64,000 nucleotides of DNA, from positions 1-64,000 of the forward strand of contig DASZWM010000006.1 of NCBI GenBank assembly GCA_035546615.1, read 5' to 3'. The notes under the pieces were generated by a model, which saw only the letters and a program-made list of their open reading frames with translations, had not been told where the DNA came from and did not search any database. The DNA comes from Minisyncoccota bacterium (GTDB lineage: Bacteria > Patescibacteriota > Minisyncoccia > Phycocordibacterales > SBAW01). Positions 16,730 through 56,295 of the stretch are shown one piece after another (position 1 is the first letter of the stretch; each line of letters begins with the position of its first letter). The position numbers were made by a program, and so were the translations under genes.

Positions 16730-17029
16730 ATGTGGAATATTGATTGGAGCTTAATAGGAATCGTAGGTCTTGCAGTAGCCACTATGTCTATTGCTATTAA
16801 GATTATCGGAGTACCTGACCAGATAAAAAGGAATTATCGTCGCAAATCAACGGAAGGAGTTTCTCTTTTATTCTATGTAATGTCTTTTGCCACTTATTTT
16901 CTCTGGGCATTATATGGATTTTTAAAAGATGATTGGGTTGTGTTTCTCGCTCAAGGTTCTTTAGGCTGTGTCACAAGTGGCATCATTCTTTGGCAATTTT
17001 TTGTGTATAGAAAAAACAAAAAGATATGA
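16730..17029 (+). CDS. SemiSWEET / PQ-loop family small transporter (AT-rich insert in pheST operon)
   Basis: 99 aa, 3 TM; architecture and motifs parallel to SemiSWEETs (…IGVPDQIKRNYRRKSTEGVSLLFYVM…LWALYGFLKDD…); stop overlaps pheT start (ATGA). Confidence 0.6.
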   Translation: MWNIDWSLIGIVGLAVATMSIAIKIIGVPDQIKRNYRRKSTEGVSLLFYVMSFATYFLWALYGFLKDDWVVFLAQGSLGCVTSGIILWQFFVYRKNKKI

Positions 17030-18849
17030 AAATCTCGCGCCGCTGGATTCAAAACTTTTTCAATGACGAACTGTCGAACACGCAGGCGCTTGCCGACGCG
17101 CTTACGTTCCACGCCTTCGAGATAGACGGCATCGAGCCGTATTCTGGACTTACGAAGTCCAGAATTTTGGACGAGATACTGGACGTTAAGGTTACCCCTA
17201 ACCGCGGGCACGATTGCCTGTGTCACCGCGGCATCGCAAAAGAACTTTCAGCCATTCTTAAGCTTCCGCTTAAGCAAGACCCGCTCGGCAAGAAGCCGGA
17301 GCTTGTCCCAGCTACCGATGCCGTTTCCGTAACGCTTGAGGACCCGGCGCTTAGCCCGCGCTACATCGCCGGATACATGAAGAACGTGAAGGTCGGTCCG
17401 TCGCCTGACTGGCTTGTAGAGGCCCTTGAAGCCATGGGCCAGCGCTCAATCAACAATGTCGTTGATGCGACGAACATGGTGATGTTCAATCTCGGCCAGC
17501 CCTTGCACGCCTTTGACGCGGGCAAGCTCGCGCAGAAAGACGGCAAATATGGCATCGTCGTCCGCAGGGCGCGTGCGGGAGAGAAGATCCTCGCGCTCGA
17601 CCAGAAAGAGTATGTCCTTCAGGATTCCATGCTCGTTATTGCCGACGGCAACAAGGACGAAGCTATCGGCATCGCCGGCGTGAAGGGCGGCACGCCGGCG
17701 GGCATTACCGAAGCGACGACCGACATCATCATCGAGTCCGCCAACTTCAACGGCGTGTCCGTCCGTAAGACCGCCCAGGCGCTGAAGCTGCGCACCGACG
17801 CGTCCAGCCGCTTTGAGCAGGGCCTCAGCCCCGAGCTGTGCGCATACGGCATGCAGCAGGTCGTTGATCTCATAAAAACAATCGCAAGCGGGGAACTGGT
17901 CGGCTTTGCCGATGTATATCCGGCGCCCCAAGGGCCCGCCTATGCTGCAGTATCGGTAGAGAAGGTCAATCAGATACTGGGTACTCAGCTCACCGGCACG
18001 GAGGTGGCGGACGCTTTTGCGCGCCTCGGCTTCGCATACAAAGAAGAGAATGGAGTATTCCAGGTCACGGTCCCGTTCGAGCGCCTCGACATAACGATCC
18101 CGGAAGATTTGGTCGAGGAGGTCGGCCGCATCGTCGGCTACGACAAGGTACCCGCTGTGCCTCTGCCTCCCATGCCCCCCTCTTCCCAAGCAAGCGCGAG
18201 CTTCTCGGCGACAGAGCGCGTCCGCGCGGATCTCATAAAGCAGGGATATTCGGAAGTTCTTACGTCCGTATTTTCAGACAAGGGCGAGCGCGCGGTGTTA
18301 AATAAAGTGGACAGCGTAAAGCCGTATTTGCGCAGCAATCTCACCGATGGACTTACCGAAGCTCTGAAAAAGAACATTCCGAACAAAGACCTGCTTGGAC
18401 TTAAGGAAGTAAAGCTGTTCGAGATAGGAACTGTCTGGAAAGGTGATAAGGAGGAAGTAGTGGTCGGCACCGTAAGCGAAAAGAAGCAGGCCGAAGAAAA
18501 AGCGCTGAGCGAATATGCGGCTGATTCGGCTCCTGTACAAGACCTGCCGCTTTCGCAAACGGAGCGGTACCAGTCATTCTCCAAGTATCCCTACATCGTG
18601 CGCGATATCGCTATGTGGACTCCTGCACGTACGACGCCCGAATCGGTTCAGGAACTTATACAGGCTGAGGCGGGGGAGTTGTGCACAAAAGTATCGCTCT
18701 TCGACCAGTTCCAAAAAGGAGAAAAGACTTCGCTCGCGTTCCGCCTAATATTCCAATCATTTGAAAAGACGCTCACGGAAGGGGATGCAAACCAGGCGAT
18801 GGAAAAGGTAGCGGCAAAACTGAAAGAAAAAGGCTTCGAGATCAGGTAA
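17026..18849 (+). CDS. pheT: Phenylalanyl-tRNA synthetase beta subunit (short, 607 aa)
   Basis: N-terminal tRNA-binding (VTPNRGHDCL), B5 domain, C-terminal FSKYPYIVRDIAMW anticodon-binding region. Confidence 0.88.
   Translation: MKISRRWIQNFFNDELSNTQALADALTFHAFEIDGIEPYSGLTKSRILDEILDVKVTPNRGHDCLCHRGIAKELSAILKLPLKQDPLGKKPELVPATDAVSVTLEDPALSPRYIAGYMKNVKVGPSPDWLVEALEAMGQRSINNVVDATNMVMFNLGQPLHAFDAGKLAQKDGKYGIVVRRARAGEKILALDQKEYVLQDSMLVIADGNKDEAIGIAGVKGGTPAGITEATTDIIIESANFNGVSVRKTAQALKLRTDASSRFEQGLSPELCAYGMQQVVDLIKTIASGELVGFADVYPAPQGPAYAAVSVEKVNQILGTQLTGTEVADAFARLGFAYKEENGVFQVTVPFERLDITIPEDLVEEVGRIVGYDKVPAVPLPPMPPSSQASASFSATERVRADLIKQGYSEVLTSVFSDKGERAVLNKVDSVKPYLRSNLTDGLTEALKKNIPNKDLLGLKEVKLFEIGTVWKGDKEEVVVGTVSEKKQAEEKALSEYAADSAPVQDLPLSQTERYQSFSKYPYIVRDIAMWTPARTTPESVQELIQAEAGELCTKVSLFDQFQKGEKTSLAFRLIFQSFEKTLTEGDANQAMEKVAAKLKEKGFEIR
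17141..17165. repeat. 25-nt perfect palindrome ATTCTGGACTTACGAAGTCCAGAAT inside pheT (codes YSGLTKSRI)
   Basis: Read directly; same core recurs at 43719 and 27626. Confidence 0.9.
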
Positions 18850-21913: not shown

Positions 21914-22225
21914 TCAGGCCGCGACGGGCGTCCGGCGCTTCTCGATTTCGGGCTTCCAAGCCGCCGTGAGCTCGGCGTACTCGTCATCGACCGGAGTACC
22001 GTCGATTCCCTTGGCCTGAGCTTCGCTGAAAAAGCCGTTGGAAATCGGGGCTTTCTTCAGATCGGCGGGTGCCCCGTTGTAGCTGCCGACGAGCTGTCCT
22101 AGGACGCAAGACTGGTCGTACTGAATGTCGAGTTCGCCGGTGTCGATATGACCGGCCCACCCGGGCATCAATTGGTCGAGCAAGGTAGCGCCTGCGGCTG
22201 CGCGTGCTGCTGAAACATGAAACAT
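21914..22225 (-). CDS. Hypothetical protein
   Basis: Start moved to Met preceded by GGAGGG RBS. Confidence 0.35.
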   Translation of the reverse strand: MFHVSAARAAAGATLLDQLMPGWAGHIDTGELDIQYDQSCVLGQLVGSYNGAPADLKKAPISNGFFSEAQAKGIDGTPVDDEYAELTAAWKPEIEKRRTPVAA

Positions 22226-22386
22226 TGAAGAACCCTCCAATCCATTGTTGCGGGATTCGGAGATGGTCACGATACTAGTGTGACTCCCCAAGATAACAAT
22301 ACTCCTCACCCGATTTTTATCAAACTAGAGTATAAGCAAAAACTCCGGCGCTTGGCCGGAGTTTTTGCTACCTTATTATTTAAGAT

Positions 22387-23553
22387 TTAGTTCGTGCGGA
22401 CCGAGACAGTGTTATTGCCCTCGTTGAGCTCGCGGACCCAGTTGCGCGGGTCGGCGGTGATAGTGAGCGTGCCGCCGCGGGAATCATAGCGGTCATCGTT
22501 GCGATCGTAGTCGTCGCAGTACTCGTCATACCAGTCCTCCCACTCGTCGGTGTCCCAGTCGTCGCGGCTGTGGCTCGAGGTGTCCCAGGCATCCTGGTAC
22601 CAGTCCATCCAATCCTCCTCGTCCCAGCTGTTGTGGCTCTCGTCGCACTCGTCGTAGCGCTCGTCATCGGAGCGGCTGTCGCGCGAGCGGTAGCCCTCGT
22701 CGAAGGTCAGGGTGTAGACGATGCGGTCGCCCGGGTAGAGCGCCTGCTGCGCGGGGGAGCTGTAGGCGTAGCCGCCGTCAACCGGAATGTCCGCGGAAAG
22801 GTTCCAGCCGGCCGGCACGGTATTGGAGCCGACGTTCGCTATCTCGAACTGCGCCGCGGTGCTGCCGTAGCGCGAGGAAAGGGAATTGACCGAAAGGATG
22901 CGGACAGAAAGGTCCGGGTAGCCGTACAGCGCGGTCGCGCGCGGCGCGGCATAGTAGGTGGCGCCGGCGTAGCTGGCACCGGTCGAGGCGGGAGCCGTGA
23001 CAGGAGCCGCCGCGGCAACCGCGGGATTAACGGTCACGTCGGCCGATGCGCTTGCGGTGATGGCTCCGTCGCTGAGGCGCGTCGCAAGCACGGTTATGGT
23101 CGTATTAGCCGCCTGCTTAGCCGTGTTCTTCGCGGTAAGCGTCATGTTGGAGGTCGCGCCCGTGTAATTGAAGGACGAGCCGCATGCGACGGTCTGCGAT
23201 TTGCCCGCCGGGGTAGGGGCCTGAATGGAGAGGCCGCTTGCGCACGAGAAGGAGAGCGCGTAGCTATACTCGCCGTCCTTGTTCGAGTGGTTCCAGGAAA
23301 CGCTGAACGACTGTCCGGAGGCGACAGCGGAGCTCGGCACGGTAAGAGTCATCTCTTCGGTGCCGTTATCGTTCGTGTCGTGCGCGGTGCCGGTCATGAG
23401 CGAGGTAAGGCTTGAGCCCACGCCGCCGACGATGGAGGAAAGGTTAAACGCGAGCAGGATAATGCCCCAAGCGCCCAAAAGCAGCACAAGAATAACCCCG
23501 AGGAGGGCTACGACGCGCAGAAAGGTGTCCCGGAAAGTCTTTTTTTCGTGCAT
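22387..23553 (-). CDS. Cell-surface protein with CARDB-like domains and an Asp/Trp/Glu-rich low-complexity insert
   Basis: N-terminal signal anchor; S/T/A-rich linker; FEIANVGSNTV... and C-terminal ...RELNEGNNTVSV (CARDB E-x-NE-x-NN hallmark); ~70-aa D/W/E/Y-rich segment. Confidence 0.55.
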   Translation of the reverse strand: MHEKKTFRDTFLRVVALLGVILVLLLGAWGIILLAFNLSSIVGGVGSSLTSLMTGTAHDTNDNGTEEMTLTVPSSAVASGQSFSVSWNHSNKDGEYSYALSFSCASGLSIQAPTPAGKSQTVACGSSFNYTGATSNMTLTAKNTAKQAANTTITVLATRLSDGAITASASADVTVNPAVAAAAPVTAPASTGASYAGATYYAAPRATALYGYPDLSVRILSVNSLSSRYGSTAAQFEIANVGSNTVPAGWNLSADIPVDGGYAYSSPAQQALYPGDRIVYTLTFDEGYRSRDSRSDDERYDECDESHNSWDEEDWMDWYQDAWDTSSHSRDDWDTDEWEDWYDEYCDDYDRNDDRYDSRGGTLTITADPRNWVRELNEGNNTVSVRTN

Positions 23554-25796: not shown

Positions 25797-26069
25797 ATGA
25801 ATCGGAAGATAATCGGACTATTCTTTCTCGCTGCGATGACCGCCTCGGCCACAGCCGGCCAGAGCGTTCCTCCGCCAACCGGGCAAGAGCTCGAGGTGTT
25901 CCGGAACCGCGCTCAGCTGGTTCTCGGACACCACCTCGACGACTACTACTTCATGGGGCATAACGCGGGGCCGCCGCCGCGTCCCGGCTGCGTTCTCGAC
26001 AAGCGGGTGAAGGATCCGCATGTTCCGAACCTCTACCATGCGGGCTGGCGTTGCCCGAAACAGCACTGA
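25797..26069 (+). CDS. Small secreted hypothetical protein
   Basis: Signal peptide; followed by a 31-nt perfect palindrome. Confidence 0.35.
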   Translation: MNRKIIGLFFLAAMTASATAGQSVPPPTGQELEVFRNRAQLVLGHHLDDYYFMGHNAGPPPRPGCVLDKRVKDPHVPNLYHAGWRCPKQH

Positions 26070-26091
26070 CGTTCTTCGTTACTCTTTGTGC

Positions 26092-26122
26092 GCAGAGCGA
26101 TCGATATGATCGATCGCTCTGC
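26092..26122. promoter_or_regulatory. 31-nt perfect palindrome GCAGAGCGATCGAT-atg-ATCGATCGCTCTGC
   Basis: Read directly; between small secreted ORF and the repeat-protein gene; not followed by a clean T-run. Confidence 0.4.
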
Positions 26123-26232
26123 CACAAAATTTTTTCGCTATTTTCTGATTACAAATCTCTGTACGAGGTTTGTAGCCAGACTCTCGCGAAGGGAGTCGAG
26201 ATTATTACTAGTTTGATTTAGAAGAAAGTATT

Positions 26233-27531
26233 ATGAACAGCAATATTATAAACATAGGTCGTAAGATAAGCGTTGCTCTTATAGCGCTTATAGTTCTCGT
26301 GTTGCCTTTCGCTTCGGTGCAGGCAGCTGACTACTCTGACTATGATTATGTCGGGACCTCGTATTATGGTTCTGACTCTTCTAGCGATTACGTCGGGACT
26401 TCCTATTATGATTCCGGTTCTTCAAATAGTGGGAGCGATTACGTAGGAACGTCTTACTATACTCCTGATACTTCCAATGACTATGATTACGTTGGAACTT
26501 CGTACTATGAAGATAACTCTTCTGACTATGATTATGTCGGAACCTCCTATTATGGCTCTGGCTGCACCACGAACTGTGGCGGCGGTGGAGGTGGCGGCGG
26601 GGGCGGCGGATGCCGTTCTAACTGCACCCCTCCTCCTCCGAAGCCGGCCCCGGTTTGCGACCTCTCGGTCAGCCCTTCGCGCGTAGATTACGGCGATTCC
26701 GTAACTATCTCCTGGACCACGTCCAACGCCATCAGCGCCTTCCTCGCCGGTTTCGGCACGGTGTCCACTAACGGCTCCCGCACCAGCGGCGCTATCTATG
26801 GCACCAAGACCTACACTCTTACCGCGACCGCAAGCGGCGGCCGCACGGTAACCTGCTCCAAGACCGTTACAGTCGAGCGCGAGCATGAGCACACGCCCGA
26901 TCTCGAGTGCAAGCTTAAGGCTTCCGACACGAGCATCGAGCGCGGAGACTCGGTCCGCATCACCTGGTCTAGCGACGGCGCTGACTACGGCTACATCACT
27001 CCGGATATCGGTGATGTCGATGAAAGCGGTTCCGACACGGTAGAACCTCGCTCTGATACGACTTACAAGGGTACCTTCTACAACGACGACGGCGACAAGG
27101 TTACCTGCTCGGTCAAGGTAAACGTTGACCGCGAGTACAATCCGCCGGTCTACGAGAATCCGACTCCGTACATTAACCTCTCCGCTGTTCCGTACACCGG
27201 CCTTGACCTCGGTCCTGTCGGTACGGTTCTCTACTGGGCGTTCCTCATCGCATGGTGCCTCGTTGCCGCATACCTTATCGCGGTCAAGCGCGTCCACATG
27301 AGCGTGTACCGCTGGTACAAGAAGGCGCTCTTCGGCGAGGAGGTGCACTTCGCGCCGGCGCAGGAAGTCTCCTTCGCAGGGTTCTCCCACGCTGATGTCG
27401 CAAAGCTCGCAGAGATGCTTCGCGGCGCAGTCGCTCCCTCGCACGCTTCGGCACCTGTTGCTGCAGCTCCCGCAGGCGATGCGATAGACCCGTTCATCCT
27501 CTCGCAGATCCATCGCACTCCGCGCTCCTAA
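26233..27531 (+). CDS. Surface repeat protein: 5x DYVGTSYY repeats, poly-Gly/Cys spacer, two Ig-like C...C domains, TM, cytoplasmic tail
   Basis: Signal peptide; repeats D-Y-(D-Y)-V-G-T-S-Y-Y separated by S/D-rich spacers; CGGGGGGGGGGGGC; PPPPKP; two ~70-aa Cys-bounded beta-rich modules; VLYWAFLIAWCLVAAYLIAV TM. 5' third is AT-rich. Confidence 0.5.
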   Translation: MNSNIINIGRKISVALIALIVLVLPFASVQAADYSDYDYVGTSYYGSDSSSDYVGTSYYDSGSSNSGSDYVGTSYYTPDTSNDYDYVGTSYYEDNSSDYDYVGTSYYGSGCTTNCGGGGGGGGGGGCRSNCTPPPPKPAPVCDLSVSPSRVDYGDSVTISWTTSNAISAFLAGFGTVSTNGSRTSGAIYGTKTYTLTATASGGRTVTCSKTVTVEREHEHTPDLECKLKASDTSIERGDSVRITWSSDGADYGYITPDIGDVDESGSDTVEPRSDTTYKGTFYNDDGDKVTCSVKVNVDREYNPPVYENPTPYINLSAVPYTGLDLGPVGTVLYWAFLIAWCLVAAYLIAVKRVHMSVYRWYKKALFGEEVHFAPAQEVSFAGFSHADVAKLAEMLRGAVAPSHASAPVAAAPAGDAIDPFILSQIHRTPRS

Positions 27532-34677: not shown

Positions 34678-35586
34678 ATGGCAAATAGGCACCTATCCCG
34701 CTCAGTTGTCCTACAGACGCTCTTTGAGTGGGACATCCGCAATGCTTCGTCCGAAGGGGCGGGGGATGCCCTTGCGCGCAATGCCGCGGAGTTTGCTCCG
34801 GCGGCGGGCGACCTGCCGTTTATGGAAGACTTGCTCAAGGGAACTCTTTCCCGCAAAGCGGACCTTGATATGGTCATTGAAAAGGCGGCGCCCGAGTGGC
34901 CGCTTGATCGCATCGCGCCTGTGGACCGCAATGTCCTGAGGCTCGGGCTCTACGAGCTTCTTTTTGCCGACCGCGACAAGGTTCCGGCAAAGGTGGCGAT
35001 AAACGAGGCTATTGAGCTGGCGAAGTCCTTCGGCGGCGAGAATTCCGGACGCTTCGTCAACGGCGTGCTCGGCGCCGTGTACAAGGAGCTCGGCGAGCCG
35101 GGCAAGGACGAAGTCTCCAAGAAAAAGAAGGACGTTCCGTACGAGGAAATGCCGGTCCAGCACCTGGGCGGCGCTGTCGTCTACGCGCGCCAGGGCAAGG
35201 ACCTGTATCTGGCGCTCGTGCACGATATCTTCGGCCACTGGACGCTCTCTAAGGGCAAAATAGGCGACAAGCCCGAATTCGCCAACGAAACGGTGGAGGA
35301 AGGCACGATACGCGAGATAAAAGAGGAGATAGGCCTGGACATAACGCTCAAGGAGAAGATAGGCGAGAACGAGTACGTCGCAAGCGACCCGAAGACCGGC
35401 AAGAAGCGCAAGCACGTCACCTACTTCCTTGCGGAGTCGCCGTTCGCCGAAGTAAAGCTCGAGCAGAAAGGCGGGCTCGACGACGCGCGATGGTTCAAGC
35501 TACAGGACGCGCTCGACCTCAATTTCTACGAAGATATGCTCCCGCTCGTTACAAAAGCAGTGCAAAGATTAGCCCAAGAGAAATAG
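34678..35586 (+). CDS. nusB: NusB antitermination factor fused in-frame to a C-terminal Nudix hydrolase domain
   Basis: N-terminal ~140 aa NusB (RSVVLQTLFEWDIR...); C-terminal Nudix box GHWTLSKGKIGDKPEFANETVEEGTIREIKEEIGLD (G-x5-E-x7-REuxEExGu). Confidence 0.8.
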   Translation: MANRHLSRSVVLQTLFEWDIRNASSEGAGDALARNAAEFAPAAGDLPFMEDLLKGTLSRKADLDMVIEKAAPEWPLDRIAPVDRNVLRLGLYELLFADRDKVPAKVAINEAIELAKSFGGENSGRFVNGVLGAVYKELGEPGKDEVSKKKKDVPYEEMPVQHLGGAVVYARQGKDLYLALVHDIFGHWTLSKGKIGDKPEFANETVEEGTIREIKEEIGLDITLKEKIGENEYVASDPKTGKKRKHVTYFLAESPFAEVKLEQKGGLDDARWFKLQDALDLNFYEDMLPLVTKAVQRLAQEK

Positions 35587-39652: not shown

Positions 39653-41614
39653 TTATTTTACCAATTCGAAATCCAGCTGGCGGCTGCCGAGGTCGGCTGC
39701 GACCAGCTTAACCTTCACTTTGTCGCCGAGCGTGTATTTCTGCTTCGTGCGCTGGCCTATGAGCGCGTACTCCTTTGCGGAGTAGTTATAAAAATCATTG
39801 CCTATGGTACGCACGCGCACGAGGCCTTCGGCGGCGGACTCCTTATCTTCCACGTACAGGCCCCAGTCGGTCACGCCGGAAATCACGCCCTCGAATGTTT
39901 GGCCAATTTTCCCCATCATGAACTCCACCTGCTTGTAGCGGATGGATTCGCGCTCGGCGTCAACGGCTTCGGCTTCGCGGGCGGAAGCTGCGATGCACAT
40001 CTTCTCCAGGTTTCCGTATTCCGTGCGGGTCATAGGCTTGCCGTCCAAATGGCTGGCGAGGATGCGGTGCGCGAGCATGTCCGGGTAGCGGCGGATGGGG
40101 GAGGTGAAGTGCGTGTAGTAATCGAACGCGAGACCGAAGTGCCCGATGTTCTTGGTCGAGTAAATAGCCTTGGCCATAGAGCGAAGGGTGGCGGTGCGGA
40201 TAAGATGCTCCTCCGGCTTGCCCTGGATATCCTTCAAAAGCTTCCCGATGTCGCGCGCGGATTTCTTCTTTTGCGTATTGAATTCGTAGCCTATCGCGCG
40301 CACGAACGTGGAAAGCTCCTCGATGCGGTCCTCTTTCGGCTGGTCGTGGATGCGGTAGAGGAAGACATAATTTTTTTCCGGAAGCTTTTCCGCAAGCTTC
40401 GATACGTACAGCGCAACTTCGCGGTTCGCCAAAAGCATGAACTCCTCGATCATGAGCATTGTCTCGATGCGGACCTTGCGGATGACCTTGAGCGGCTTTC
40501 CGGATTCGTCGAGCACGAATTTCACTTCGTTGTCGCCGAAGTCTATCGCGCCTTCCTTCTCGCGCTCGCGGCGCAGTATCCGCGCCAGCGCCCGCATCTG
40601 GCCGAGCTCTTCCACATAGGGGCCTTTGCCCGCATTCAAAACTTCCTGCGCCTCCTCGTAGGTAAAGCGTTTGTTGGACCGAATGACCGACTTCGTAAAG
40701 CGGCGGTCGAGCACCTCCGCCTGCGCGTTCATGCGGAATACCGCGGAGAACGCGAGCCGGTCCTCGTCGGCCTTGAGGCTGGCGATGCCGGCCGAAAGGC
40801 TGTGGGGAAGCATGGGAATGGTCGCGTCTACCAGGTACACGCTTGTGCCGCGCTTCACGGCCTCCTCGTCCAGGGCGGTCCCGGGGCGCACGAAGTGCGT
40901 GGCATCGGCGATATGCACGCCTATCTCGAACTCGCCGTTCGGGAGCGGCTTAACCGAAATGGCATCGTCGAAGTCCTTCGCGTCGGCCGGGTCGATAGTG
41001 AAGGTTGTCGTGTCGCGAAAGTCTTCCCGCTTAGGAAGCTCTTCCTCGATTATTTTCGCATGATTAGCCTCAAGTTCGCGCGCCTCGGCTTCCGCCGCTT
41101 CGGGAAATTCGGTGCGGAAGCCGTGCTCGAGCACGATGGCGTTCATCTCCACCCGGTGCTCGCCCGCGCGGCCCAGGTGCTGAGTTATGGAGCCGACCGG
41201 GTCGGTCTTTCCGTCAAAAGATATCAAATGCACGATGACCTTCTCTCCCTCCTCGTATTTGCTGTCGTCCGACAGCGTGATGGGGCGGTAGAATTTCACG
41301 TCCGCAGGCACGGCAACGATGCGGCCGCCTTGCTGGCGCAGCGTTGCGACGAAGTCTTCTTTGGCGCGGGCAACAATTTTTACCATCTTGCCTTTGGGGC
41401 GGGGGAATAGGCCCAGCACTTCTGCTTCGACAGTGTCGCCATTGAGCGCCCCAGACAGGTCGGGAGTCTGTATCTCTATATCCTCCTTCTCAGGGTCCTC
41501 AGGCCACGAAAGATAACCGACGCCTTTGCGGGTTACTTGGACGATTCCGGAAATGGTCTTCTTCTTGCCCGCTTGGGGGGCCGGTTTCTTGCTAGGAGGC
41601 ATTAACCCGCGCAC
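39653..41614 (-). CDS. rnr: Ribonuclease R / RNase II family 3'-5' exoribonuclease
   Basis: RNB domain motifs (FTIDPADAKDFDDAISV), cold-shock/S1-like flanks, K-rich N-terminus; 653 aa. Confidence 0.85.
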   Translation of the reverse strand: MRGLMPPSKKPAPQAGKKKTISGIVQVTRKGVGYLSWPEDPEKEDIEIQTPDLSGALNGDTVEAEVLGLFPRPKGKMVKIVARAKEDFVATLRQQGGRIVAVPADVKFYRPITLSDDSKYEEGEKVIVHLISFDGKTDPVGSITQHLGRAGEHRVEMNAIVLEHGFRTEFPEAAEAEARELEANHAKIIEEELPKREDFRDTTTFTIDPADAKDFDDAISVKPLPNGEFEIGVHIADATHFVRPGTALDEEAVKRGTSVYLVDATIPMLPHSLSAGIASLKADEDRLAFSAVFRMNAQAEVLDRRFTKSVIRSNKRFTYEEAQEVLNAGKGPYVEELGQMRALARILRREREKEGAIDFGDNEVKFVLDESGKPLKVIRKVRIETMLMIEEFMLLANREVALYVSKLAEKLPEKNYVFLYRIHDQPKEDRIEELSTFVRAIGYEFNTQKKKSARDIGKLLKDIQGKPEEHLIRTATLRSMAKAIYSTKNIGHFGLAFDYYTHFTSPIRRYPDMLAHRILASHLDGKPMTRTEYGNLEKMCIAASAREAEAVDAERESIRYKQVEFMMGKIGQTFEGVISGVTDWGLYVEDKESAAEGLVRVRTIGNDFYNYSAKEYALIGQRTKQKYTLGDKVKVKLVAADLGSRQLDFELVK

Positions 41615-41687
41615 TATACCACGGTTGACCGAATATATCTACTCTGATACAGTATGAGCCAAGCCCGAGAGGGCCTATTTTTAAGAA

Positions 41688-42122
41688 ATGCTTACCATCC
41701 GACTCCAGCGCCGCGGACGCAAGAACGACCCGTCTTTCCGGGTTATTCTCGTTGAGTCCAAGCGTGCAGCAAAGACCGGCAGCTTCCAGGAGGTCCTCGG
41801 CTCATACGACCCGCGCGTTGACCGCACCGACCTCAAGGCCGACCGCATCAAGCACTGGATAGGCATGGGCGCGACCGTTTCCGACACCGTGCACAACATC
41901 CTCATCAATCAGAAAGTCATCGAGGGCAAGAAGATAAACGTGCTCCCGCGCAAGAGCCCGCCGAAGAAGGCGGAAGAGGCGGCTGCAGCCGCTCCCGCAG
42001 CAGAAGCGGCAGCTCCTGAAGCAGCCGAGACCACTGAAGAAAAGGCAGAGGCGACGTCTCCCGAGGCAAAAGCGGAAGAAGCTGTGAATACCGAGGTTGC
42101 TGAGGAAACTCCCGCACAATAG
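41688..42122 (+). CDS. rpsP: 30S ribosomal protein S16 with K/A/E-rich C-terminal extension
   Basis: MLTIRLQRRGRKNDPSFRVILVESKRA S16 signature. Confidence 0.9.
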   Translation: MLTIRLQRRGRKNDPSFRVILVESKRAAKTGSFQEVLGSYDPRVDRTDLKADRIKHWIGMGATVSDTVHNILINQKVIEGKKINVLPRKSPPKKAEEAAAAAPAAEAAAPEAAETTEEKAEATSPEAKAEEAVNTEVAEETPAQ

Positions 42123-42235: not shown

Positions 42236-42622
42236 ATGGCAGCAGAGAGAGATCAGGAGTTTTTGGAATTTGTCGTAAAAGGTCTTGTCGAGAATCCGGA
42301 CGCGGTTAAGATAACTCGCGCCGTAGACGAAATGGGCGTTCTTTTGACGCTCGACCTCCATCCGGATGACATGGGCAAGGTTATCGGCCGCTCGGGCAAT
42401 ACCGCCAAGGCAATACGCACGCTTCTTCGCGTCGTTGGCATGAAGCACAATGCCCGCGTGAACCTTAAGATAAACGAACCGGCAGGAGGGCTTCGCGATC
42501 CTGCTATGAGCGCTCCGAGCGGCGGCAGCGCTGCCCAGGGCTGGGACGGCAGCCACGAGGCTCCCGCAACCCCTGCGATGAAGTCGGTGGACGAGGCGAT
42601 GGACGAGCTCTCAAAGTTCTAA
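42236..42622 (+). CDS. KH-domain RNA-binding protein (YlqC-like) with C-terminal extension
   Basis: GKVIGRSGNTAKAIRTLLRVVG KH motif; classic position downstream of rpsP. Confidence 0.75.
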   Translation: MAAERDQEFLEFVVKGLVENPDAVKITRAVDEMGVLLTLDLHPDDMGKVIGRSGNTAKAIRTLLRVVGMKHNARVNLKINEPAGGLRDPAMSAPSGGSAAQGWDGSHEAPATPAMKSVDEAMDELSKF

Positions 42623-42660
42623 TCTCAGATATTTTAGCAAAGGCCGCCGCAAGGCGGCTT

Positions 42661-43500
42661 TTGCTTTTCCCGCCCTCCTTTATACTGTGGAGTATGTATC
42701 CTCCTGTTTCTGACCTGCTCGCAGAGCTCTCTTTATTTCCCGGAAGGGAAGACGGCTTGCGGAAAATTAAAAGGTATAGCAATGAGAAAGTAGCTTTTTA
42801 CCGCTCTTCTGATTTTTCTCATAGCAAGAGAGTGGCGTGGCTTGTATATAGTCTCATCCCATTATTATCAGAGGTAGATAAGACTTTTGATATAGGGCGC
42901 GCTGTGGCTATGGCGCTCGTGCACGACGATGCTGAACTGATAACGGGTGATCATCAAGCTGGTAATAAAAGCAAAATGACCAAAGAGCAGCTTGCTGCAA
43001 TTGCTGACGAAGAACGTGAAGCGATTGCCGCTTTGGCAAAGAGATATCCAAAAACTCTCGGCGGATATGTCTATCAGGACCTAGTACAAGATCTCGCTGA
43101 TCTAAAGAATTCTGAAGCTCATTTTGTTAAGTACTTTGATCGTTTTGATGCTTTGGGGGAGACTTACCATGAACTCTTTGCAGGGAATGTGGTTTGGACG
43201 CAAAACGTAGTTAATGAGTGGGGCATCATTCCCACACCTTTTATGTATTACTACGATAGGCTGCCGCCCATGGTTGAGAAGTATCCGATCCTGACTGCTT
43301 TAAAAGGAAAACATGTATTCTTCGATGTCCCTGAAGCCAGAGAATGGGAATCATTTGTCCTGACTCGTCAGCCTCATACAAAGGATTCAATACTTGCGTC
43401 TACTGGTCATAGGCAATATGATGCCTGGCGCTCTGTTGTTATTGATTCTGCAGATCAAGAAGAAATCGCAAATCTCTACTCTCAACAAGAATACCTATGA
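42661..43500 (+). CDS. HD-domain phosphohydrolase (YfbR/5'-deoxynucleotidase-like), AT-rich insert
   Basis: H...HD motif (ALVHDDAELITGDH); gene visibly AT-rich relative to flanks; stop overlaps trmD start (ATGA). Confidence 0.65.
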   Translation: MLFPPSFILWSMYPPVSDLLAELSLFPGREDGLRKIKRYSNEKVAFYRSSDFSHSKRVAWLVYSLIPLLSEVDKTFDIGRAVAMALVHDDAELITGDHQAGNKSKMTKEQLAAIADEEREAIAALAKRYPKTLGGYVYQDLVQDLADLKNSEAHFVKYFDRFDALGETYHELFAGNVVWTQNVVNEWGIIPTPFMYYYDRLPPMVEKYPILTALKGKHVFFDVPEAREWESFVLTRQPHTKDSILASTGHRQYDAWRSVVIDSADQEEIANLYSQQEYL

Positions 43501-44153
43501 ATTTCCATGTCGTAACGCTTTTTCCGGAAGTTATCGAGGCCTATACGAACGCTTCGATACTGGGCCGTGCCCAGAAAGAGAAGAAGTTTTCCGTTAAGAC
43601 CTACCAGCTGCGCGATTTCGTCAGCAATAAATGGGGCAAGGTAGACGAGCGCCCATACGGCGGCGGCCCGGGCATGGTTATCCAGGCCGAGCCGGTCATC
43701 AGGGCAGTCCAGAAAATATCTGGACTTACGAAGTCCAGAATTCGGCCGAAGGTCATTATTACTGCGGCAGGCGGCAAGCCTTTGACCAACGCGTATGCCA
43801 AAGCGCTTTTGAAGCAAAAGGACGTCATAATCGTTTGCGGCAGGTACGAAGGCATCGACGCCCGGGCAAAAAAAGTGCTCAAGGCCGAAGAAGTCTCCGT
43901 TGGGCCGTACATTCTGACCGGGGGCGAGGTTCCGGCCTTGGCAATCATTGATGCGACCGCTCGGCAGATAAAGGGCGTTTTGGGCAAGTTCGAGTCCCTC
44001 GAGGAGTCCCGGGTCGCAAGCCACGAGATATACACCCGCCCCGAGGTCCTGAAAGCAAAAGGAAAGAACTACGCGGTCCCGAAGGTCCTCCTCTCCGGCC
44101 ATCATGCAAAGATGGACCAGTGGAAAGAAAAGAAACGCAGCAAACCCCTATAA
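43497..44153 (+). CDS. trmD: tRNA (guanine37-N1)-methyltransferase
   Basis: MNFHVVTLFPEV...; RPYGGGPGMV; CGRYEGIDAR SPOUT-knot motifs. Confidence 0.9.
   Translation: MNFHVVTLFPEVIEAYTNASILGRAQKEKKFSVKTYQLRDFVSNKWGKVDERPYGGGPGMVIQAEPVIRAVQKISGLTKSRIRPKVIITAAGGKPLTNAYAKALLKQKDVIIVCGRYEGIDARAKKVLKAEEVSVGPYILTGGEVPALAIIDATARQIKGVLGKFESLEESRVASHEIYTRPEVLKAKGKNYAVPKVLLSGHHAKMDQWKEKKRSKPL
43719..43739. repeat. Palindromic element copy TCTGGACTTACGAAGTCCAGA inside trmD (codes ISGLTKSRI)
   Basis: Identical 21-nt core and identical reading frame as the pheT copy. Confidence 0.9.
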
Positions 44154-44171: not shown

Positions 44172-44199
44172 TTGACGGGCCTTCCCAGGCGCGTATACT
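44172..44199 (+). promoter_or_regulatory. Putative promoter TTGACG-16-TATACT upstream of rpoBC
   Basis: Consensus-like hexamers; followed by an inverted repeat TGTATCGA-N10-TCGATACA (44233..44258). Confidence 0.4.
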
Positions 44200-44315: not shown

Positions 44316-51293
<6,978 letters not shown>

Positions 51294-53399: not shown

Positions 53400-54632
53400 A
53401 TGGCTGCTAAAAAGAAGAAAAAGCCGGCCCCCCGTAAGGCGGGGTTGAAGGCGAAGAAGTTCCGCGCCGCCGCCGCAAAGCGCCGGGCAAAGCTCGCGCC
53501 CAAGAAGCCGGCCAAGAAGGCGGCGGCTCCGGCGGCCAAGATCAACCCGAAGATCGCCAAAAAGGTTGAGGAGCAGAACAAGAAGGCCGAAGCGCTTATG
53601 GCGCGCGGCCGCGAGCGCGGATTCGTCACCTACGACGAGATCTTGAAGGCGTTCCCGAATATCGAGACGGACGTCATGTTCCTTGAGGACCTCTATGAGA
53701 AGTTCTCGACCGCGCATATCGACGTGCTCGAAGGCGGCGGCATGCTTGAAATAGCCGAGGAGCCGGCAGAAAAGGGCTACTCGCGCTCCGACTCGCAGTA
53801 CGATTCCATCCAGATGTACCTGCGCGAGATAGGCAAGTACCCGCTGCTTAACGCGCAAAGCGAGCGCGATCTCGCAAAGCGCATTGTCGAGGGCGACGAT
53901 GAAGCCCGCAACCTGCTTGCCCGCGCGAACCTGCGCCTCGTGGTTTCCATCGCCAAGAAGTACGTAGGCCGCTCGCCGGACCTTACCCTTTTGGACCTCA
54001 TTCAGGAGGGCAACCTCGGCCTCTTCAAGGCCGTGGACAAGTTCGACTACTCCAAGGGCTTCAAATTCTCGACCTACGCCACCTGGTGGATACGCCAGGC
54101 CATTACCCGCGCGCTCGCCGACCAGAGCCGCACCATCCGCATTCCGGTGCACATGGTCGAGACCATCGCCAAATACAAGCAGGTCTCGCGCCGCCTTTCC
54201 CAGGATCTCGGCCGCGACCCGCTTGCGGAGGAAATCGCGCTTGAGATGGGCGTGGACGTCGACAAGATCTACCAGATAGAAAAGATCGACCAGGATACTA
54301 TTTCGCTTGAGAGCCCGGTCGGGTCCGACGACGGCGACGACGGCAAGTCGGTGCTCGGCGATTTCATAAAGGACGACAAGATACTCTCGCCGGACCAGGA
54401 AGTGGCCCGCCGCATACTCGCCGACCAGCTCAAGGAGATCCTTGAAGAACTGAGCCCCAAGGAGCGCGAGATCCTCAAGCTGCGCCACGGCCTTGAAGAC
54501 GGCATTTATCACACGCTTGAGGAAGTGGGGAAGAAGTTCGGGGTTACCCGCGAGCGCATCCGCCAGATCGAGGCGAAGGCCCTGGAGCGCATACGCACGC
54601 ACGAGAAGGCAAAGCGCCTCCGCAGCTACTAA
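53400..54632 (+). CDS. rpoD: RNA polymerase sigma-70 factor with Lys/Ala/Pro-rich N-terminal extension
   Basis: Regions 1.2-4 ([11 protein letters not shown]; region 2.4 [14 protein letters not shown]; region 4.2 [18 protein letters not shown]); first ~55 aa are AKKP-rich. Confidence 0.9.
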
Positions 54633-54703: not shown

Positions 54704-54988
54704 TTAGTCGGTAAAGTTCTCTTCTTCGAAGTCGTCCATCTCTCTGCCCATTTGCTTAAGCCCTTCTTCGAAAAAATTGTGGGCTCTCGCGATTTCTGGG
54801 CTTAGCAGGACACTATTCTTCTCGGAAAACGCTTTGAATTTCCGAAGAAGAAAAGGTACAGGTTCCATAGAAGGATTCCACTCTATTGTTCCGGGTAGGA
54901 ACAGGTGAGTGAGGACTACCGTGCCATCTGGTTTGGTTGCCCGCGTAAAATCCTCTTTTTTGAGGACATAGTTTTCAACTTCTCCCAC
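54704..54988 (-). CDS. Hypothetical protein in AT-rich segment
   Basis: ORF; region 54640..55110 visibly AT-rich. Confidence 0.3.
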   Translation of the reverse strand: MGEVENYVLKKEDFTRATKPDGTVVLTHLFLPGTIEWNPSMEPVPFLLRKFKAFSEKNSVLLSPEIARAHNFFEEGLKQMGREMDDFEEENFTD

Positions 54989-55047: not shown

Positions 55048-56295
55048 TTAAATCATGTCAAATTTTTTATTAGGAAGTGCCTGATACAAATCCCAAATAA
55101 CGGCTGCAACATTATGCGGCTCGCCTTCAAACGGCAGATGATGATTGTCGAAGAACGGCCGGCCGTTTGTCTCTATGACGCCGCACTTGGGCGTTTCCTT
55201 CCACGAGCGGCTGATATCGCTCGTGATAAAGTCGATGCCGACGATGGGCGCATGCAAGACCCGCGCTATCTCCTCGAACAGCGCCTTATTGTCGGGATGC
55301 ACTTTTTCCGTCACGTCGGTGGTGGTGCCGCCGAGCGCCCAGTTTATTTTAGGATGCAGATAGACAGCACGGCCTTGTTCGGGAATGCTCTGCAAAGTCA
55401 ATCCTTGAAGCTTGAGTTCCTGCTCGCCTAGTGCGGTTAGTTTGATATGCGAGAAGTACGGGCCCTGGCGCTTGGGATGCGTGTTCGCCTGCGCAATAAG
55501 TTCCTCTATAGTATGCTCGCCGTCGCCCACCACGCGCGGCGGGTCGCGACGGATGGTAGCGACAAGTTTTCCATCCACCAGCGTCGGCCGATAGACGGAG
55601 CCTTCGAGTTCTTCCTCTATGACGACCAGCGGAGAAACCTCTTTAGCTATTTTGAATCCGCGCTCAAGCGCAGTTTCGTCGCTGATATGGAGCGTGGTGT
55701 GCCGCGAGGCCGAGCCTTCGGCGGGCTTTGCTATGACCGTGCCGTTGATTTCCTTGAATATGCGGTTTGCCTTGGCGAGCGAGAATGCGGACTCGCCGCG
55801 GGCAACCGGCAGGCCGAGCGCCCGGAACTTCTTCTTCATGACGGTCTTGTTGTCTATCCACCAGACCGGCTGCTCCATCCGCGCGGGGAACGGGATGCTT
55901 TCGAATCCGATCCGCCGGCCGCCCGGAAACGTTGCCAGGAAGCTTGCGGTAGGGAGGCCGAGCAGGCGGAACTCCCGCATACGGATGCCGCGTTTTTTCG
56001 CTTCTTCCCAAAGGACCAGATCAAGCAGGAGCGTTTTATCATCCGGCTCTTCAAGCAGTTCCGCCAAACCAAGACGCGCTAAGCCCTCAGCCACGAGACC
56101 CTTGCTGTCCCGCTTCGGCAAAAGCCTGGAGGCGCCGTCCGTTATCCGCCCCATCAGCGCCGAAAAAGGCGTAGCGGCAAGGCCGATAAGAAGCGTGAAG
56201 TACTGGATACGATGATGTATCGCATCGCCGCCGCATTCGATGCAGGGTTTTGCGGCGGGAAGTGCGATGCGCATATTCCTAAAGCATACGGGCAT
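55048..56295 (-). CDS. ATP-grasp domain protein resembling the N-terminal ATP-grasp module of cyanophycin synthetase (no Mur-ligase part)
   Basis: …GIRMREFRLLGLPTASFL…KTVMKKKFRALGLPVARG…VIAKPAEGSASRHTTLHIS…PLVVIEEELEGSVYRPTLVDGKLVAT…VVGDGEHTIEELI parallels the CphA N-terminal ATP-grasp layout. True start may be internal. Confidence 0.55.
   Translation of the reverse strand: MPVCFRNMRIALPAAKPCIECGGDAIHHRIQYFTLLIGLAATPFSALMGRITDGASRLLPKRDSKGLVAEGLARLGLAELLEEPDDKTLLLDLVLWEEAKKRGIRMREFRLLGLPTASFLATFPGGRRIGFESIPFPARMEQPVWWIDNKTVMKKKFRALGLPVARGESAFSLAKANRIFKEINGTVIAKPAEGSASRHTTLHISDETALERGFKIAKEVSPLVVIEEELEGSVYRPTLVDGKLVATIRRDPPRVVGDGEHTIEELIAQANTHPKRQGPYFSHIKLTALGEQELKLQGLTLQSIPEQGRAVYLHPKINWALGGTTTDVTEKVHPDNKALFEEIARVLHAPIVGIDFITSDISRSWKETPKCGVIETNGRPFFDNHHLPFEGEPHNVAAVIWDLYQALPNKKFDMI

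What the first reader, a model, noticed from the sequence alone, without database searches (positions are those of the whole stretch)
42661..43500. Second AT-rich foreign gene (HD phosphohydrolase) inside the rpsP-KH-trmD ribosomal operon, replacing the expected rimM slot
The canonical operon is rpsP-(KH/ylqC)-rimM-trmD-rplS. Here rimM and rplS are absent from the locus and an HD-domain hydrolase of strikingly low GC sits in the rimM position, again overlapping the downstream essential gene start by ATGA. Two independent low-GC insertions into conserved operons, both coupled by ATGA overlaps, suggest a recurring mode of gene acquisition, perhaps from AT-rich episymbiont relatives or phage.
Basis: partly seen in the sequence, partly recalled or inferred. 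Interest (0 to 1): 0.68.

Follow-up and report, generated by a model that had tools for sequence, protein, structure and literature searches.

The report
Swappable nucleotidase gene upstream of trmD
The AT-rich gene between the KH-protein gene and trmD is an intact nucleotide-cleaning enzyme gene in a slot where related tiny bacteria carry different accessory genes, so it is ordinary accessory-gene turnover and not a fresh foreign insertion that displaced rimM.

Summary
An intact YfbR-like HD phosphohydrolase gene (ATG 42694 to stop 43500) lies between a KhpA-like KH gene and trmD. Its GC is 43.6% against 58.8% for the window, and its GC3 is 0.38 against 0.75±0.065 (z = -5.7). Its stop overlaps the trmD start as ATGA.

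The window comes from a Paceibacterota (CPR) genome, and RimM is missing from nearly all CPR, so nothing was displaced. Twelve loci, the window included, carry an HD homologue (44-78% identical) in the same position. In 8 of the 9 where the junction can be read, it is the same ATGA.

The gene is nevertheless accessory. The closest relative fetched (L177; rpoBC 93%, trmD 90%) has a NADAR-domain gene in exactly that slot, also AT-rich and also ending in ATGA. Other relatives add NUDIX or unknown ORFs. One HD allele transfer inside the clade is shown by a quartet conflict (1000/1000 each way). The window's own allele is congruent with the core genes.

No phage relatives were found. The family is small and was seen only in CPR and DPANN genomes. 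My best reading is an exchangeable nucleotide house-cleaning gene, translationally coupled to trmD. Its AT-richness goes with accessory status.

The parts
41625..41653 (+). sigma-70-like promoter match upstream of rpsP (TTGACC-17-TACAGT, with TG)
   Evidence: consensus match only
41688..42122 (+). rpsP (ribosomal protein S16) with an Ala/Glu/Pro-rich C-terminal tail
   Evidence: PF00886 4e-14 and TIGR00002 71 bits. Conserved upstream of the KH gene in all relatives.
42236..42622 (+). KhpA-like KH-domain RNA-binding protein gene; forms the left border of the slot
   Evidence: PF13083 3e-21. 87.5% identical to L177 (tblastn). Homology to L177 ends at its stop codon.
42636..42668 (+). GC-rich hairpin followed by TTTTGCTTTT; terminator-like, just after the KH stop
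   Evidence: fold -29 kcal/mol for the intergenic stretch. A comparable hairpin follows KH in L177, L001, L171, L173, L006 and L008. Function is inferred.
42681..42686 (+). TATACT -10-like hexamer 7 nt upstream of the HD ATG; putative promoter of a leaderless HD-trmD transcript
   Evidence: The same hexamer lies 6 nt before the ATG in L170. A TAnnnT hexamer lies 6-8 nt before the start of 18 of 57 window genes. Inferred, not shown.
42694..43500 (+). Long-form YfbR-like HD-domain 5'-(deoxy)nucleotidase gene (268 aa); the AT-rich cargo gene
   Evidence: Residues H43, H77, D78, E81, D86 and D149 are invariant in the family. AF2 pLDDT is 97. Fold match to YfbR 2paq/2pau has target-normalised TM 0.76.
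43497..43500 (+). ATGA overlap: the HD stop (TGA) overlaps the trmD start (ATG)
   Evidence: The same junction is present in L170, L001, L003, L173, L006 and L175, and with the NADAR cargo in L177.
43497..44153 (+). trmD (tRNA m1G37 methyltransferase); forms the right border of the slot
   Evidence: NF000648 226 bits and TIGR00088 217 bits. No SD-like or -10-like motif lies upstream.
44172..44199 (+). sigma-70-like promoter match (TTGACG-16-TATACT, 10 of 12) upstream of rpoBC
   Evidence: consensus match only
44316..51293 (+). Fused rpoB-rpoC ORF (2325 aa); it follows trmD where rplS is expected
   Evidence: The fused gene is also present in L001, L006 and L177.

Best explanation
The gene encodes a functional metal-dependent HD-domain 5'-(deoxy)nucleotidase of the YfbR/HDDC2 type. 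It belongs to a long form of about 265 aa with a roughly 100-residue helical C-terminal extension, seen here only in CPR bacteria and DPANN archaea. I infer that it converts (d)NMPs to nucleosides plus phosphate, for nucleotide salvage or pool cleaning in an organism that must scavenge nucleotides.

Genomically it is an accessory cargo gene in a variable slot. The slot is bounded on the left by the terminator-like hairpin after the KH gene and on the right by the trmD start codon. Different relatives hold HD, NADAR, NUDIX+HD, orf209+HD or HD+orf162 in this slot. In most loci the last cargo codon overlaps the trmD ATG (ATGA).

The following step is inferred. The genome mostly uses leaderless-type starts and few Shine-Dalgarno sites, and trmD has neither signal. 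TrmD synthesis would therefore depend on termination-reinitiation from whatever cargo ORF sits upstream.

The AT-richness reflects accessory status. Either the cargo escapes the forces that enrich core genes in GC, or it is exchanged among related lineages of differing GC. It does not reflect a recent arrival from outside the clade or from a phage, and no rimM was displaced.
For: Enzyme identity:
- PF12917 scores 56 bits against a cut-off of 25.9.
- The family profile hits E. coli YfbR 2paq at 2e-13. R18, H33, H68, D69, E72, D77 and D137 of YfbR align to invariant R27, H43, H77, D78, E81, D86 and D149.
- The AF2 model has pLDDT 97, and its best fold matches are YfbR, HDDC2, PH0347 and OxsA.
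- dN is 0.13 with saturated dS against L170, which indicates purifying selection.

Conserved slot:
- KH-HD-trmD order is found in the window, L170, L001/2, L003/4/5, L006, L007/8, L010, L011, L012, L091, L171/2, L173/4 and L175/6.

Variable cargo:
- L177 (rpoBC 92.7%, trmD 90%, KH 87.5%; dS 0.48-1.16) carries NADAR (PF08719, 1.7e-23) with a hairpin and an ATGA junction, and has no HD remnant.
- NUDIX lies in the slot in L175, orf209 in L001 and orf162 in L171.
Among the top 120 trmD hits, no contig other than the window's own matches an HD contig.

Allele exchange:
- HD supports (window,L006)|(L175,L091) in 1000 of 1000 replicates. trmD supports (window,L175)|(L006,L091) in 1000 of 1000; KH gives 937 and rpsP 820 for the trmD topology.

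Composition:
- The HD GC3 is below that of its neighbouring genes in most relatives, by about 0 to 0.37.
- NADAR GC3 is 0.52 against 0.71-0.92 for the neighbouring genes in L177.

Expression signals:
- 18 of 57 genes have a TAnnnT hexamer 6-8 nt before the start, and only 13 of 57 have an SD-like motif.

Other points:
- RimM absence in CPR is published (PMC6744442, PMC12641178).
- HD, NADAR and NUDIX are also neighbours elsewhere, in L128, L139 and L009.
Against: - No activity, transcript or translation data exist. The leaderless promoter and the translational coupling are inferred from sequence patterns only.
- Not every relative has the ATGA junction. L171 has an 84-nt gap, L091 about 5 nt and L012 about 386 nt.
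- Only one non-HD slot (L177/L178) was verified at the DNA level. The rarity of HD among close relatives rests on matching contig lengths between hit lists, which is indirect.
- A GC3 deficit of 0.37 is far larger than the family-wide median of -0.04. Accessory status does not explain it quantitatively.
- The substrate could be something other than dNMPs. W19 of YfbR is Tyr here, and the C-terminal domain has no characterised counterpart.
Confidence: 0.7

Rival explanations
1. Recent horizontal acquisition by the window's lineage from an AT-rich donor outside its clade (another episymbiont or a phage), inserted into the operon.
For: - GC3 z = -5.7 and codon-usage z = -6.0.
- The closest relative, L177, lacks the gene.
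- Other AT-rich genes in the window include an IS200-like transposase.
Against: - The same position is used in 12 loci, and the same ATGA junction in 8 of the 9 where it can be read.
- All homologues above 44% identity sit in this slot.
- The window allele groups with L170 and then L001+L003, as the core genes do.
- The nearest allele is 78% identical with saturated dS.
- There are no viral relatives, and the only PHROG hit is weak.
- There are no flanking repeats or mobility genes.
- The tetranucleotide signature is only mildly atypical.
Confidence: 0.07
2. Recent allelic replacement from a lower-GC close relative. The slot's cargo was swapped in by homologous recombination through the conserved KH and trmD flanks, and it has not yet adjusted to the 59% GC host.
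For: - An HD allele transfer inside the clade is demonstrated for L175/L091.
- Slot content differs between the window and L177 at dS of about 0.5-1.2.
- The cargo GC (0.44-0.50) is nearly constant while host GC ranges from 0.47 to 0.62.
- The allele-A relative L170 lies on a 46.7% GC contig.
Against: - No donor-like allele closer than 78% is known.
- The window-L170 HD and trmD divergences look proportionate.
- The KH 3' end and trmD 5' end next to the cargo show no excess divergence from L177.
- A GC3 deficit is seen in almost every host, which fits a standing property of the cargo better than many recent transfers.
Confidence: 0.2
3. The HD protein is a functional stand-in for RimM or another ribosome or tRNA maturation factor, retained in the rimM position because it acts with S16, KhpA and TrmD.
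For: - It is adjacent to rpsP, KH and trmD in a whole clade.
- A distant homologue (28% identical) sits between rpsP and KH in a Nomurabacteria genome, L089.
Against: - The active site is that of a nucleotidase.
- No RNA-binding or PRC-barrel domain was found.
- The slot holds NADAR instead in the closest relative.
- About 150 more distant homologues are not near these genes.
- RimM loss is CPR-wide while this HD family is rare: 381 cluster representatives.
Confidence: 0.03
4. The slot is a miniature defence or counter-defence locus. HD, NADAR and NUDIX cargoes would be nucleotide-targeting immunity or anti-toxin enzymes under diversifying turnover.
For: - Cargo varies between close relatives and the alleles are deeply diverged.
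- The L175 NUDIX weakly matches the PADLOC candidate PDC-S07 at 2.7e-6.
- The HD protein weakly matches a PHROG dATP triphosphohydrolase at 7e-6.
- From my own knowledge, not tested here: NADAR enzymes can reverse base ADP-ribosylation.
Against: - HD has no PADLOC hit.
- No partner toxin or sensor genes are present.
- The residues are of the YfbR monophosphatase type, not the dNTPase architecture.
- Purifying selection is evident.
Confidence: 0.05

Closest known systems
E. coli YfbR 5'-deoxynucleotidase (PDB 2PAQ/2PAR/2PAU; Pfam PF12917)
   Same: - HD fold: target-normalised TM about 0.76.
- H...HD...D metal site, with the aligned R18, E72, D77 and D137 equivalents.
- Pfam score above the gathering threshold.
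   Different: - Only about 20% identical.
- Fails the NCBIfam equivalog cut-off: 22.7 bits against 122.
- W19 of YfbR is Tyr here.
- About 100 extra C-terminal residues (170-268), with their own invariant Y242, W245 and E266.
- Distribution restricted to CPR and DPANN.
Human HDDC2, yeast YGK1 (YGL101W), archaeal PF0395/PH0347 and OxsA: small HD phosphohydrolases
   Same: Among the best fold and sequence matches, with the same single-HD-domain catalytic core.
   Different: These are shorter proteins of about 170-215 aa. None has the C-terminal extension, and none is known in a trmD operon.
Canonical trmD operon, rpsP-(khpA/ylqC)-rimM-trmD-rplS, of E. coli and B. subtilis (established knowledge)
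   Same: - The order rpsP-KH-...-trmD is retained.
- A non-ribosomal gene directly precedes trmD.
   Different: - rimM is absent, as it is across CPR.
- rplS is absent from the locus, and a fused rpoBC follows trmD.
- A terminator-like hairpin splits the unit after KH.
- The pre-trmD position is filled by interchangeable accessory genes.
Accessory-gene hotspots between conserved core genes, and the general AT-bias of accessory relative to core genes (established knowledge)
   Same: - Precise conserved flanks.
- Different cargo in close relatives.
- Cargo is more AT-rich and faster evolving than the flanks.
   Different: - The slot lies inside a translation-related gene cluster.
- Each cargo is a single gene of about 0.4-0.8 kb.
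- There are no integrase, tRNA or repeat boundaries.
- The cargo repeatedly ends in an ATGA overlap with an essential gene.

Membership tests
YfbR-like HD 5'-deoxynucleotidase (Pfam PF12917) | Score above the Pfam gathering threshold | tested here: met
   56.3 bits against a cut-off of 25.9, residues 22-169
YfbR-like HD 5'-deoxynucleotidase (Pfam PF12917) | H...HD...D metal-binding motif plus YfbR catalytic and substrate residues (R18, E72, D77, D137) | tested here: met
   R27, H43, H77, D78, E81, D86 and D149 are invariant in 37 family members and align to the YfbR residues
YfbR-like HD 5'-deoxynucleotidase (Pfam PF12917) | Trp19, which by my recollection of the YfbR structural work (not checked here) enforces deoxyribose specificity | tested here: inconclusive
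   The aligned position is Tyr28 in the window protein and W or F in some alleles. The effect on specificity is unknown.
YfbR-like HD 5'-deoxynucleotidase (Pfam PF12917) | YfbR/HDDC2-type all-helical HD fold | tested here: met
   AF2 pLDDT 97. Foldseek target-normalised TM is 0.76 to 2paq/2pau, 0.77 to 2cqz and 0.73 to 1xx7.
E. coli YfbR orthologue (NCBIfam NF003009 equivalog) | Score above the equivalog cut-off of 122 bits; protein of about 200 aa | tested here: not met
   22.7 bits, and 268 aa with an extra C-terminal domain
YfbR-like HD 5'-deoxynucleotidase (Pfam PF12917) | Co2+/Mn2+-dependent hydrolysis of 5'-dNMPs | not testable with these tools
   Needs enzyme assays
Canonical rpsP-rimM-trmD-rplS operon | rimM directly upstream of trmD | tested here: not met
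   An HD gene occupies that position. No RimM Pfam hit was found in the scanned window ORFs. RimM is nearly absent from CPR.
Canonical rpsP-rimM-trmD-rplS operon | rplS directly downstream of trmD | tested here: not met
   trmD is followed by a promoter-like site and a fused rpoBC. The same is true in L001, L006 and L177.
Recently acquired foreign gene (genomic islet) | Atypical base composition and codon usage | tested here: met
   GC3 z = -5.7 and codon-usage z = -6.0
Recently acquired foreign gene (genomic islet) | Absent from the same site in close relatives | tested here: met
   L177/L178 carry NADAR instead. However, HD is present at the same site in 11 more distant relatives.
Recently acquired foreign gene (genomic islet) | Gene tree incongruent with core genes for this genome's copy | tested here: not met
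   The window allele groups with L170 (bootstrap 100) and then L001+L003 (75), as in the trmD and rpoBC trees. Incongruence is seen only for L175/L091.
Recently acquired foreign gene (genomic islet) | Mobility signatures (flanking repeats, integrase or transposase, phage homologues) | tested here: not met
   Only short chance repeats, no viral relatives, and no adjacent mobility gene

The most novel reading that the evidence does not exclude
In this SD-poor, largely leaderless-type CPR lineage, the interval between the KH terminator and the trmD ATG would be a dedicated exchange slot. Members of a nucleotide house-cleaning guild (long-form HD nucleotidase, NADAR, NUDIX) would be swapped among related genomes there. 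Whatever ORF occupies the slot would serve as the obligatory translational launcher for the essential TrmD, through ATGA termination-reinitiation. That is a role rimM's position may have played before CPR lost it. The cargo's persistent AT-richness would then be a selected or structural property of the slot and not a sign of recency.
Probability: 0.2. Interest if true: 0.5.

Novelty: new variant of a known kind. Interest (0 to 1): 0.33.

Why it matters
The finding corrects a tempting misreading: strongly atypical composition here does not mean a recent foreign insertion or a displaced rimM.

It shows that even a core translation-gene cluster of a reduced CPR genome contains a small, precisely bounded slot where accessory nucleotide-metabolism genes turn over.

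It also flags an uncharacterised long-form YfbR-like nucleotidase restricted to CPR and DPANN. Both groups depend on scavenged nucleotides, so the enzyme is a reasonable biochemical target.

If the coupling idea holds, it would show how an essential gene (trmD) is expressed in a genome with few Shine-Dalgarno sites.

Tried and rejected
- Phage origin: the viral-contig scans with the HD alignment and with trmD found nothing. The only PHROG hit is weak, to a dATP triphosphohydrolase.
- Defence role: PADLOC gave nothing for HD, orf209 or orf162.
- Embedded RNA element: Rfam gave only a sub-threshold terminator-like match.
- Site-specific insertion: no meaningful direct or inverted repeats flank the gene.
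- Recombination tract dragging divergent flanks: the KH 3' end and trmD 5' end are as similar to L177 as the rest. Only the 3' half of trmD is more divergent.
- rimM and rplS elsewhere in the window: none found among the 24 small ORFs scanned. The rest of the genome was not available.
- Window context look-up: the look-up of encoding contigs for the window's own HD protein returned 'not on record'.
- The afdb50 fold library was unavailable.
- The metagenome-contig scan returned almost only distant homologues.
- orf209 (L001) and orf162 (L171) as divergent RimM: no Pfam support. orf209 has only a faint CYTH match at 0.054.
- Some rpoBC dN/dS values were out of frame and were discarded.
Full report
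**1. What is there**

The window has 58.8% GC. Its HD protein is identical to an NCBI protein from a 'Candidatus Paceibacterota bacterium' MAG on a 208-kb contig. Around the finding the genes are as follows.
- RNase R, 39653-41614, minus strand.
- rpsP, 41688-42122.
- A KhpA-type KH gene, 42236-42622.
- The HD gene.
- trmD, 43497-44153.
- A fused rpoB-rpoC ORF, 44316-51293.

ATG 42694 matches the N-termini of all homologues. The HD stop TGA overlaps the trmD ATG as ATGA at 43497-43500.

The protein scores 56 bits on Pfam PF12917 (YfbR-like) against a cut-off of 25.9.

**2. Composition**

I called 55 host-like genes with a self-trained codon model. Their GC3 is 0.752±0.065, with a minimum of 0.58.

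The HD gene has GC 0.436 and GC1/2/3 of 0.57/0.36/0.38. That gives z = -5.7 for GC3 and z = -6.0 for synonymous-codon fit. It failed the host codon model outright.

The anomaly lies mostly in third positions. A GC-normalised tetranucleotide signature is only mildly off (r = 0.435 against 0.617±0.118, about the 5th percentile).

Three other ORFs in the window are similarly AT-shifted.
- A SemiSWEET gene between pheS and pheT.
- An IS200-like transposase gene.
- A 94-codon ORF with no Pfam match.

**3. It is not a one-off insertion**

A search of 5.8 billion proteins found only 60 homologues. I fetched context for the closest homologues that lie on usable contigs.

Every locus whose HD is at least 44% identical has the order (RNase R)-rpsP-KH-HD-trmD-(rpoBC), as far as each contig reaches. 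These loci are L001/2, L003/4/5, L006, L007/8, L010, L011, L012, L091, L170, L171/2, L173/4 and L175/6. In L001, L003, L006, L170, L173 and L175 the HD stop overlaps the trmD start by the same ATGA.

About 150 more distant homologues from other CPR lineages and from DPANN archaea are not linked to these genes. The exception is L089 (Nomurabacteria). There a 28%-identical homologue lies between rpsP and KH on the opposite strand.

**4. rimM was not displaced**

Two published surveys report RimM as missing from most or nearly all CPR genomes (PMC6744442 and PMC12641178). No RimM or L19 domain was found among the small ORFs of the window. The rest of the genome could not be examined.

**5. It is nevertheless accessory**

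A trmD search returned hundreds of proteins 79-91% identical to the window's, about 33 of them on contigs of at least 10 kb.

I fetched one of the closest, L177. Its identities to the window are rpoBC 92.7%, trmD 90%, KH 87.5%, RNase R 80% and rpsP 79%, with dS of 0.48-1.16. It has the same gene order.

Between KH and trmD, however, L177 carries an uncalled 147-codon ORF with a NADAR domain (PF08719, 1.7e-23). tblastn finds no HD remnant there. That ORF resembles the HD cargo in three ways.
- It is AT-shifted: GC 0.49 and GC3 0.52, against 0.71-0.92 for its neighbours.
- It is preceded by a hairpin after KH.
- It ends in ATGA on the trmD start.

Homology between the window and L177 stops at the KH stop codon and resumes at the trmD ATG.

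NADAR homologues occur on contigs whose lengths equal those of five other close trmD hits: 184633, 96317, 8786, 8839 and 6638 bp. This is indirect evidence that NADAR is common among the window's nearest relatives.

Other slot variants were also seen.
- NUDIX+HD in L175.
- orf209+HD in L001/L002.
- HD+orf162 in L171/L172.
- HD followed by an AT-rich gap of about 386 nt in L012.

**6. Phylogeny**

Bootstrapped NJ trees and quartet tests place the window's allele with L170 (bootstrap 100). That pair then joins L001+L003 (bootstrap 75). This matches the grouping of the window with L001 and L003 by trmD and rpoBC.

The slot has still seen transfer. For the quartet window/L175/L006/L091 the results conflict.
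- HD supports (window,L006)|(L175,L091) in 1000 of 1000 replicates.
- trmD supports (window,L175)|(L006,L091) in 1000 of 1000 replicates.
- KH supports the trmD topology in 937 and rpsP in 820.

Two pairs show the mismatch in raw identities.

| Pair | Core-gene identity | HD identity |
|---|---|---|
| L006-L091 | rpoBC 91%, KH 91%, trmD 78% | 47% |
| window-L175 | trmD 89% | 49% |

**7. Why so AT-rich**

Across 121 loci the HD GC3 tracks the flanks (r = 0.91, slope 0.87), with a median deficit of only 0.04. Within the syntenic clade the deficit ranges from about 0 (L171, L091) to 0.3 (L001) and 0.37 (the window). Cargo GC stays at 0.44-0.50 while host GC ranges from 0.47 to 0.62.

Synonymous sites are saturated between the window and its nearest allele, L170 (78% aa identity; GC3 0.38 and 0.40). 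The low GC3 is therefore not the trace of a very recent arrival from any sampled source.

Two readings remain.
- **(a) Standing property of accessory genes.** Accessory cargo escapes the force that enriches core genes in GC. That force could be codon selection or biased gene conversion, which needs homologous partners. This fits the general knowledge that accessory genes are more AT-rich than core genes.
- **(b) Circulation among relatives.** Cargo moves among related lineages of different GC and never resides long enough to equilibrate.

The flanks immediately next to the cargo show no excess divergence from L177, which does not favour a recent long recombination tract. I favour (a), with some contribution from (b). 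The size of the window's deficit remains incompletely explained.

**8. Function**

A profile of 37 family members hits E. coli YfbR (2paq) at 2e-13. The YfbR residues R18, H33, H68, D69, E72, D77 and D137 align to invariant R27, H43, H77, D78, E81, D86 and D149. W19 corresponds to Tyr28.

The AlphaFold model is very confident (pLDDT 97, pTM 0.93). It matches YfbR, PH0347, PF0395, HDDC2 and OxsA with target-normalised TM of 0.66-0.77.

Residues 170-268 form an extra, mostly helical module with its own invariant residues (Y242, W245, E266). It has no counterpart among the solved structures that matched, all of which are shorter.

The protein misses the NCBIfam equivalog cut-off for YfbR (22.7 bits against 122). 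It is therefore a family member but not an orthologue.

The long form is rare. It has 381 cluster representatives at E≤1e-3 among 1.84 billion, and 99 at E≤1e-30.

HD, NADAR and NUDIX genes are also neighbours in unrelated CPR and DPANN loci (L128, L139, L009). This suggests a shared nucleotide house-cleaning or salvage role.

I commit to a metal-dependent 5'-(d)NMP phosphohydrolase as the most likely activity. This is inferred, not shown.

**9. Expression model (inferred)**

A terminator-like hairpin with a T-run follows KH at 42636-42668. Comparable hairpins follow KH in L177, L001, L171, L173, L006 and L008.

A TATACT hexamer lies 7 nt before the HD ATG, and 6 nt before it in L170. The same TAnnnT-then-ATG arrangement precedes 18 of 57 window genes. 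SD-like motifs precede only 13 of 57. This pattern suggests mostly leaderless-type starts.

trmD has neither signal. Its translation would therefore depend on reinitiation at the ATGA after the cargo ORF. That would explain why unrelated cargoes (HD and NADAR) share the same junction. Exceptions without an overlap exist (L171, L012, L091).

**10. Negative results**

No phage relatives were found. HD has no PADLOC match. Rfam found no RNA family. No flanking repeats are present.

**11. Verdict**

It is wrong about rimM displacement, recency and a phage source.

I rate this a new variant of known kinds: a long-form YfbR-like nucleotidase, and a small accessory-gene slot coupled to trmD. It is of modest interest.

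Noticed in passing
window 44316-51293 (+): rpoB and rpoC are fused into one 2325-codon ORF. The fusion is also present in relatives L001 (2283 aa), L006 (2286 aa) and L177. The annotated 5' end (44316) may be over-extended, because GC is low until about 44600.
   Followed up: partly
window 16730-17029 (+): A SemiSWEET gene of about 99 codons (MtN3/PQ-loop; PF03083 1.9e-12) is wedged between pheS (15966-16727) and pheT (17026-18849). Its GC is 0.35 and GC3 0.29 (z = -7.1), and its stop overlaps the pheT start as ATGA. I did not check whether relatives share it.
   Followed up: partly
window 1101-1808 (-): An IS200-like Y1 transposase gene (PF01797 3e-9) with GC 0.49. The first 1.4 kb of the window are the strongest tetranucleotide outliers (r about 0.01-0.26).
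   Followed up: partly
window 54704-54988 (-): A 94-codon AT-shifted ORF (GC3 0.48, z = -4.1) with no Pfam match. It lies downstream of a 415-aa gene that also has no Pfam match (55048-56295), next to an rpoD-like sigma-factor gene (53400-54632; identified from its sequence only, not scanned).
   Followed up: no
window-wide (57 gene starts): A TAnnnT hexamer, often TATACT or TACACT, lies 6-8 nt upstream of the start codon of 18 of 57 genes. SD-like motifs precede only 13 of 57. This suggests widespread leaderless-type initiation in this Paceibacterota genome.
   Followed up: partly
L089 5528-7133 (Nomurabacteria MAG): A distant HD homologue (28% identical; PF12917 1.8e-10) sits between rpsP and the KH gene on the opposite strand. 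This is a second, independent association of the family with the rpsP-KH locus. It could be chance: I estimate an expectation of about 0.2 over roughly 150 loci.
   Followed up: partly
L128 889-2146; L139; L009 2696-6801; L122: In unrelated CPR and DPANN genomes, NADAR or NUDIX genes lie next to or near the HD homologue. The slot's alternative cargoes may belong to one functional guild.
   Followed up: partly
window 34678-35586 (+); L177 69-992: A NusB-NUDIX fusion protein (PF01029 5e-35 plus PF00293 8e-13), conserved in L177.
   Followed up: no
window 41950-42119 and 42470-42619: S16 and the KH protein both carry low-complexity C-terminal tails of about 50 residues, rich in Ala, Glu, Pro and Ser. 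The tails diverge quickly between relatives.
   Followed up: no
window 43860-44153 vs L177 8360-8657: The 3' half of trmD has much lower synonymous identity to L177 (0.32-0.45) than the 5' half (about 0.67). L177 also has an extra 148-codon minus-strand ORF between trmD and rpoBC that the window lacks. This may be a second recombination or indel boundary.
   Followed up: partly
window 22200-23200 and 26000-27400: Tetranucleotide outliers (r 0.16-0.28) overlapping two large ORFs with no Pfam match and unusually high GC2 (22387-23553, minus strand, and 26233-27531, plus strand). These may be low-complexity or surface proteins.
   Followed up: no
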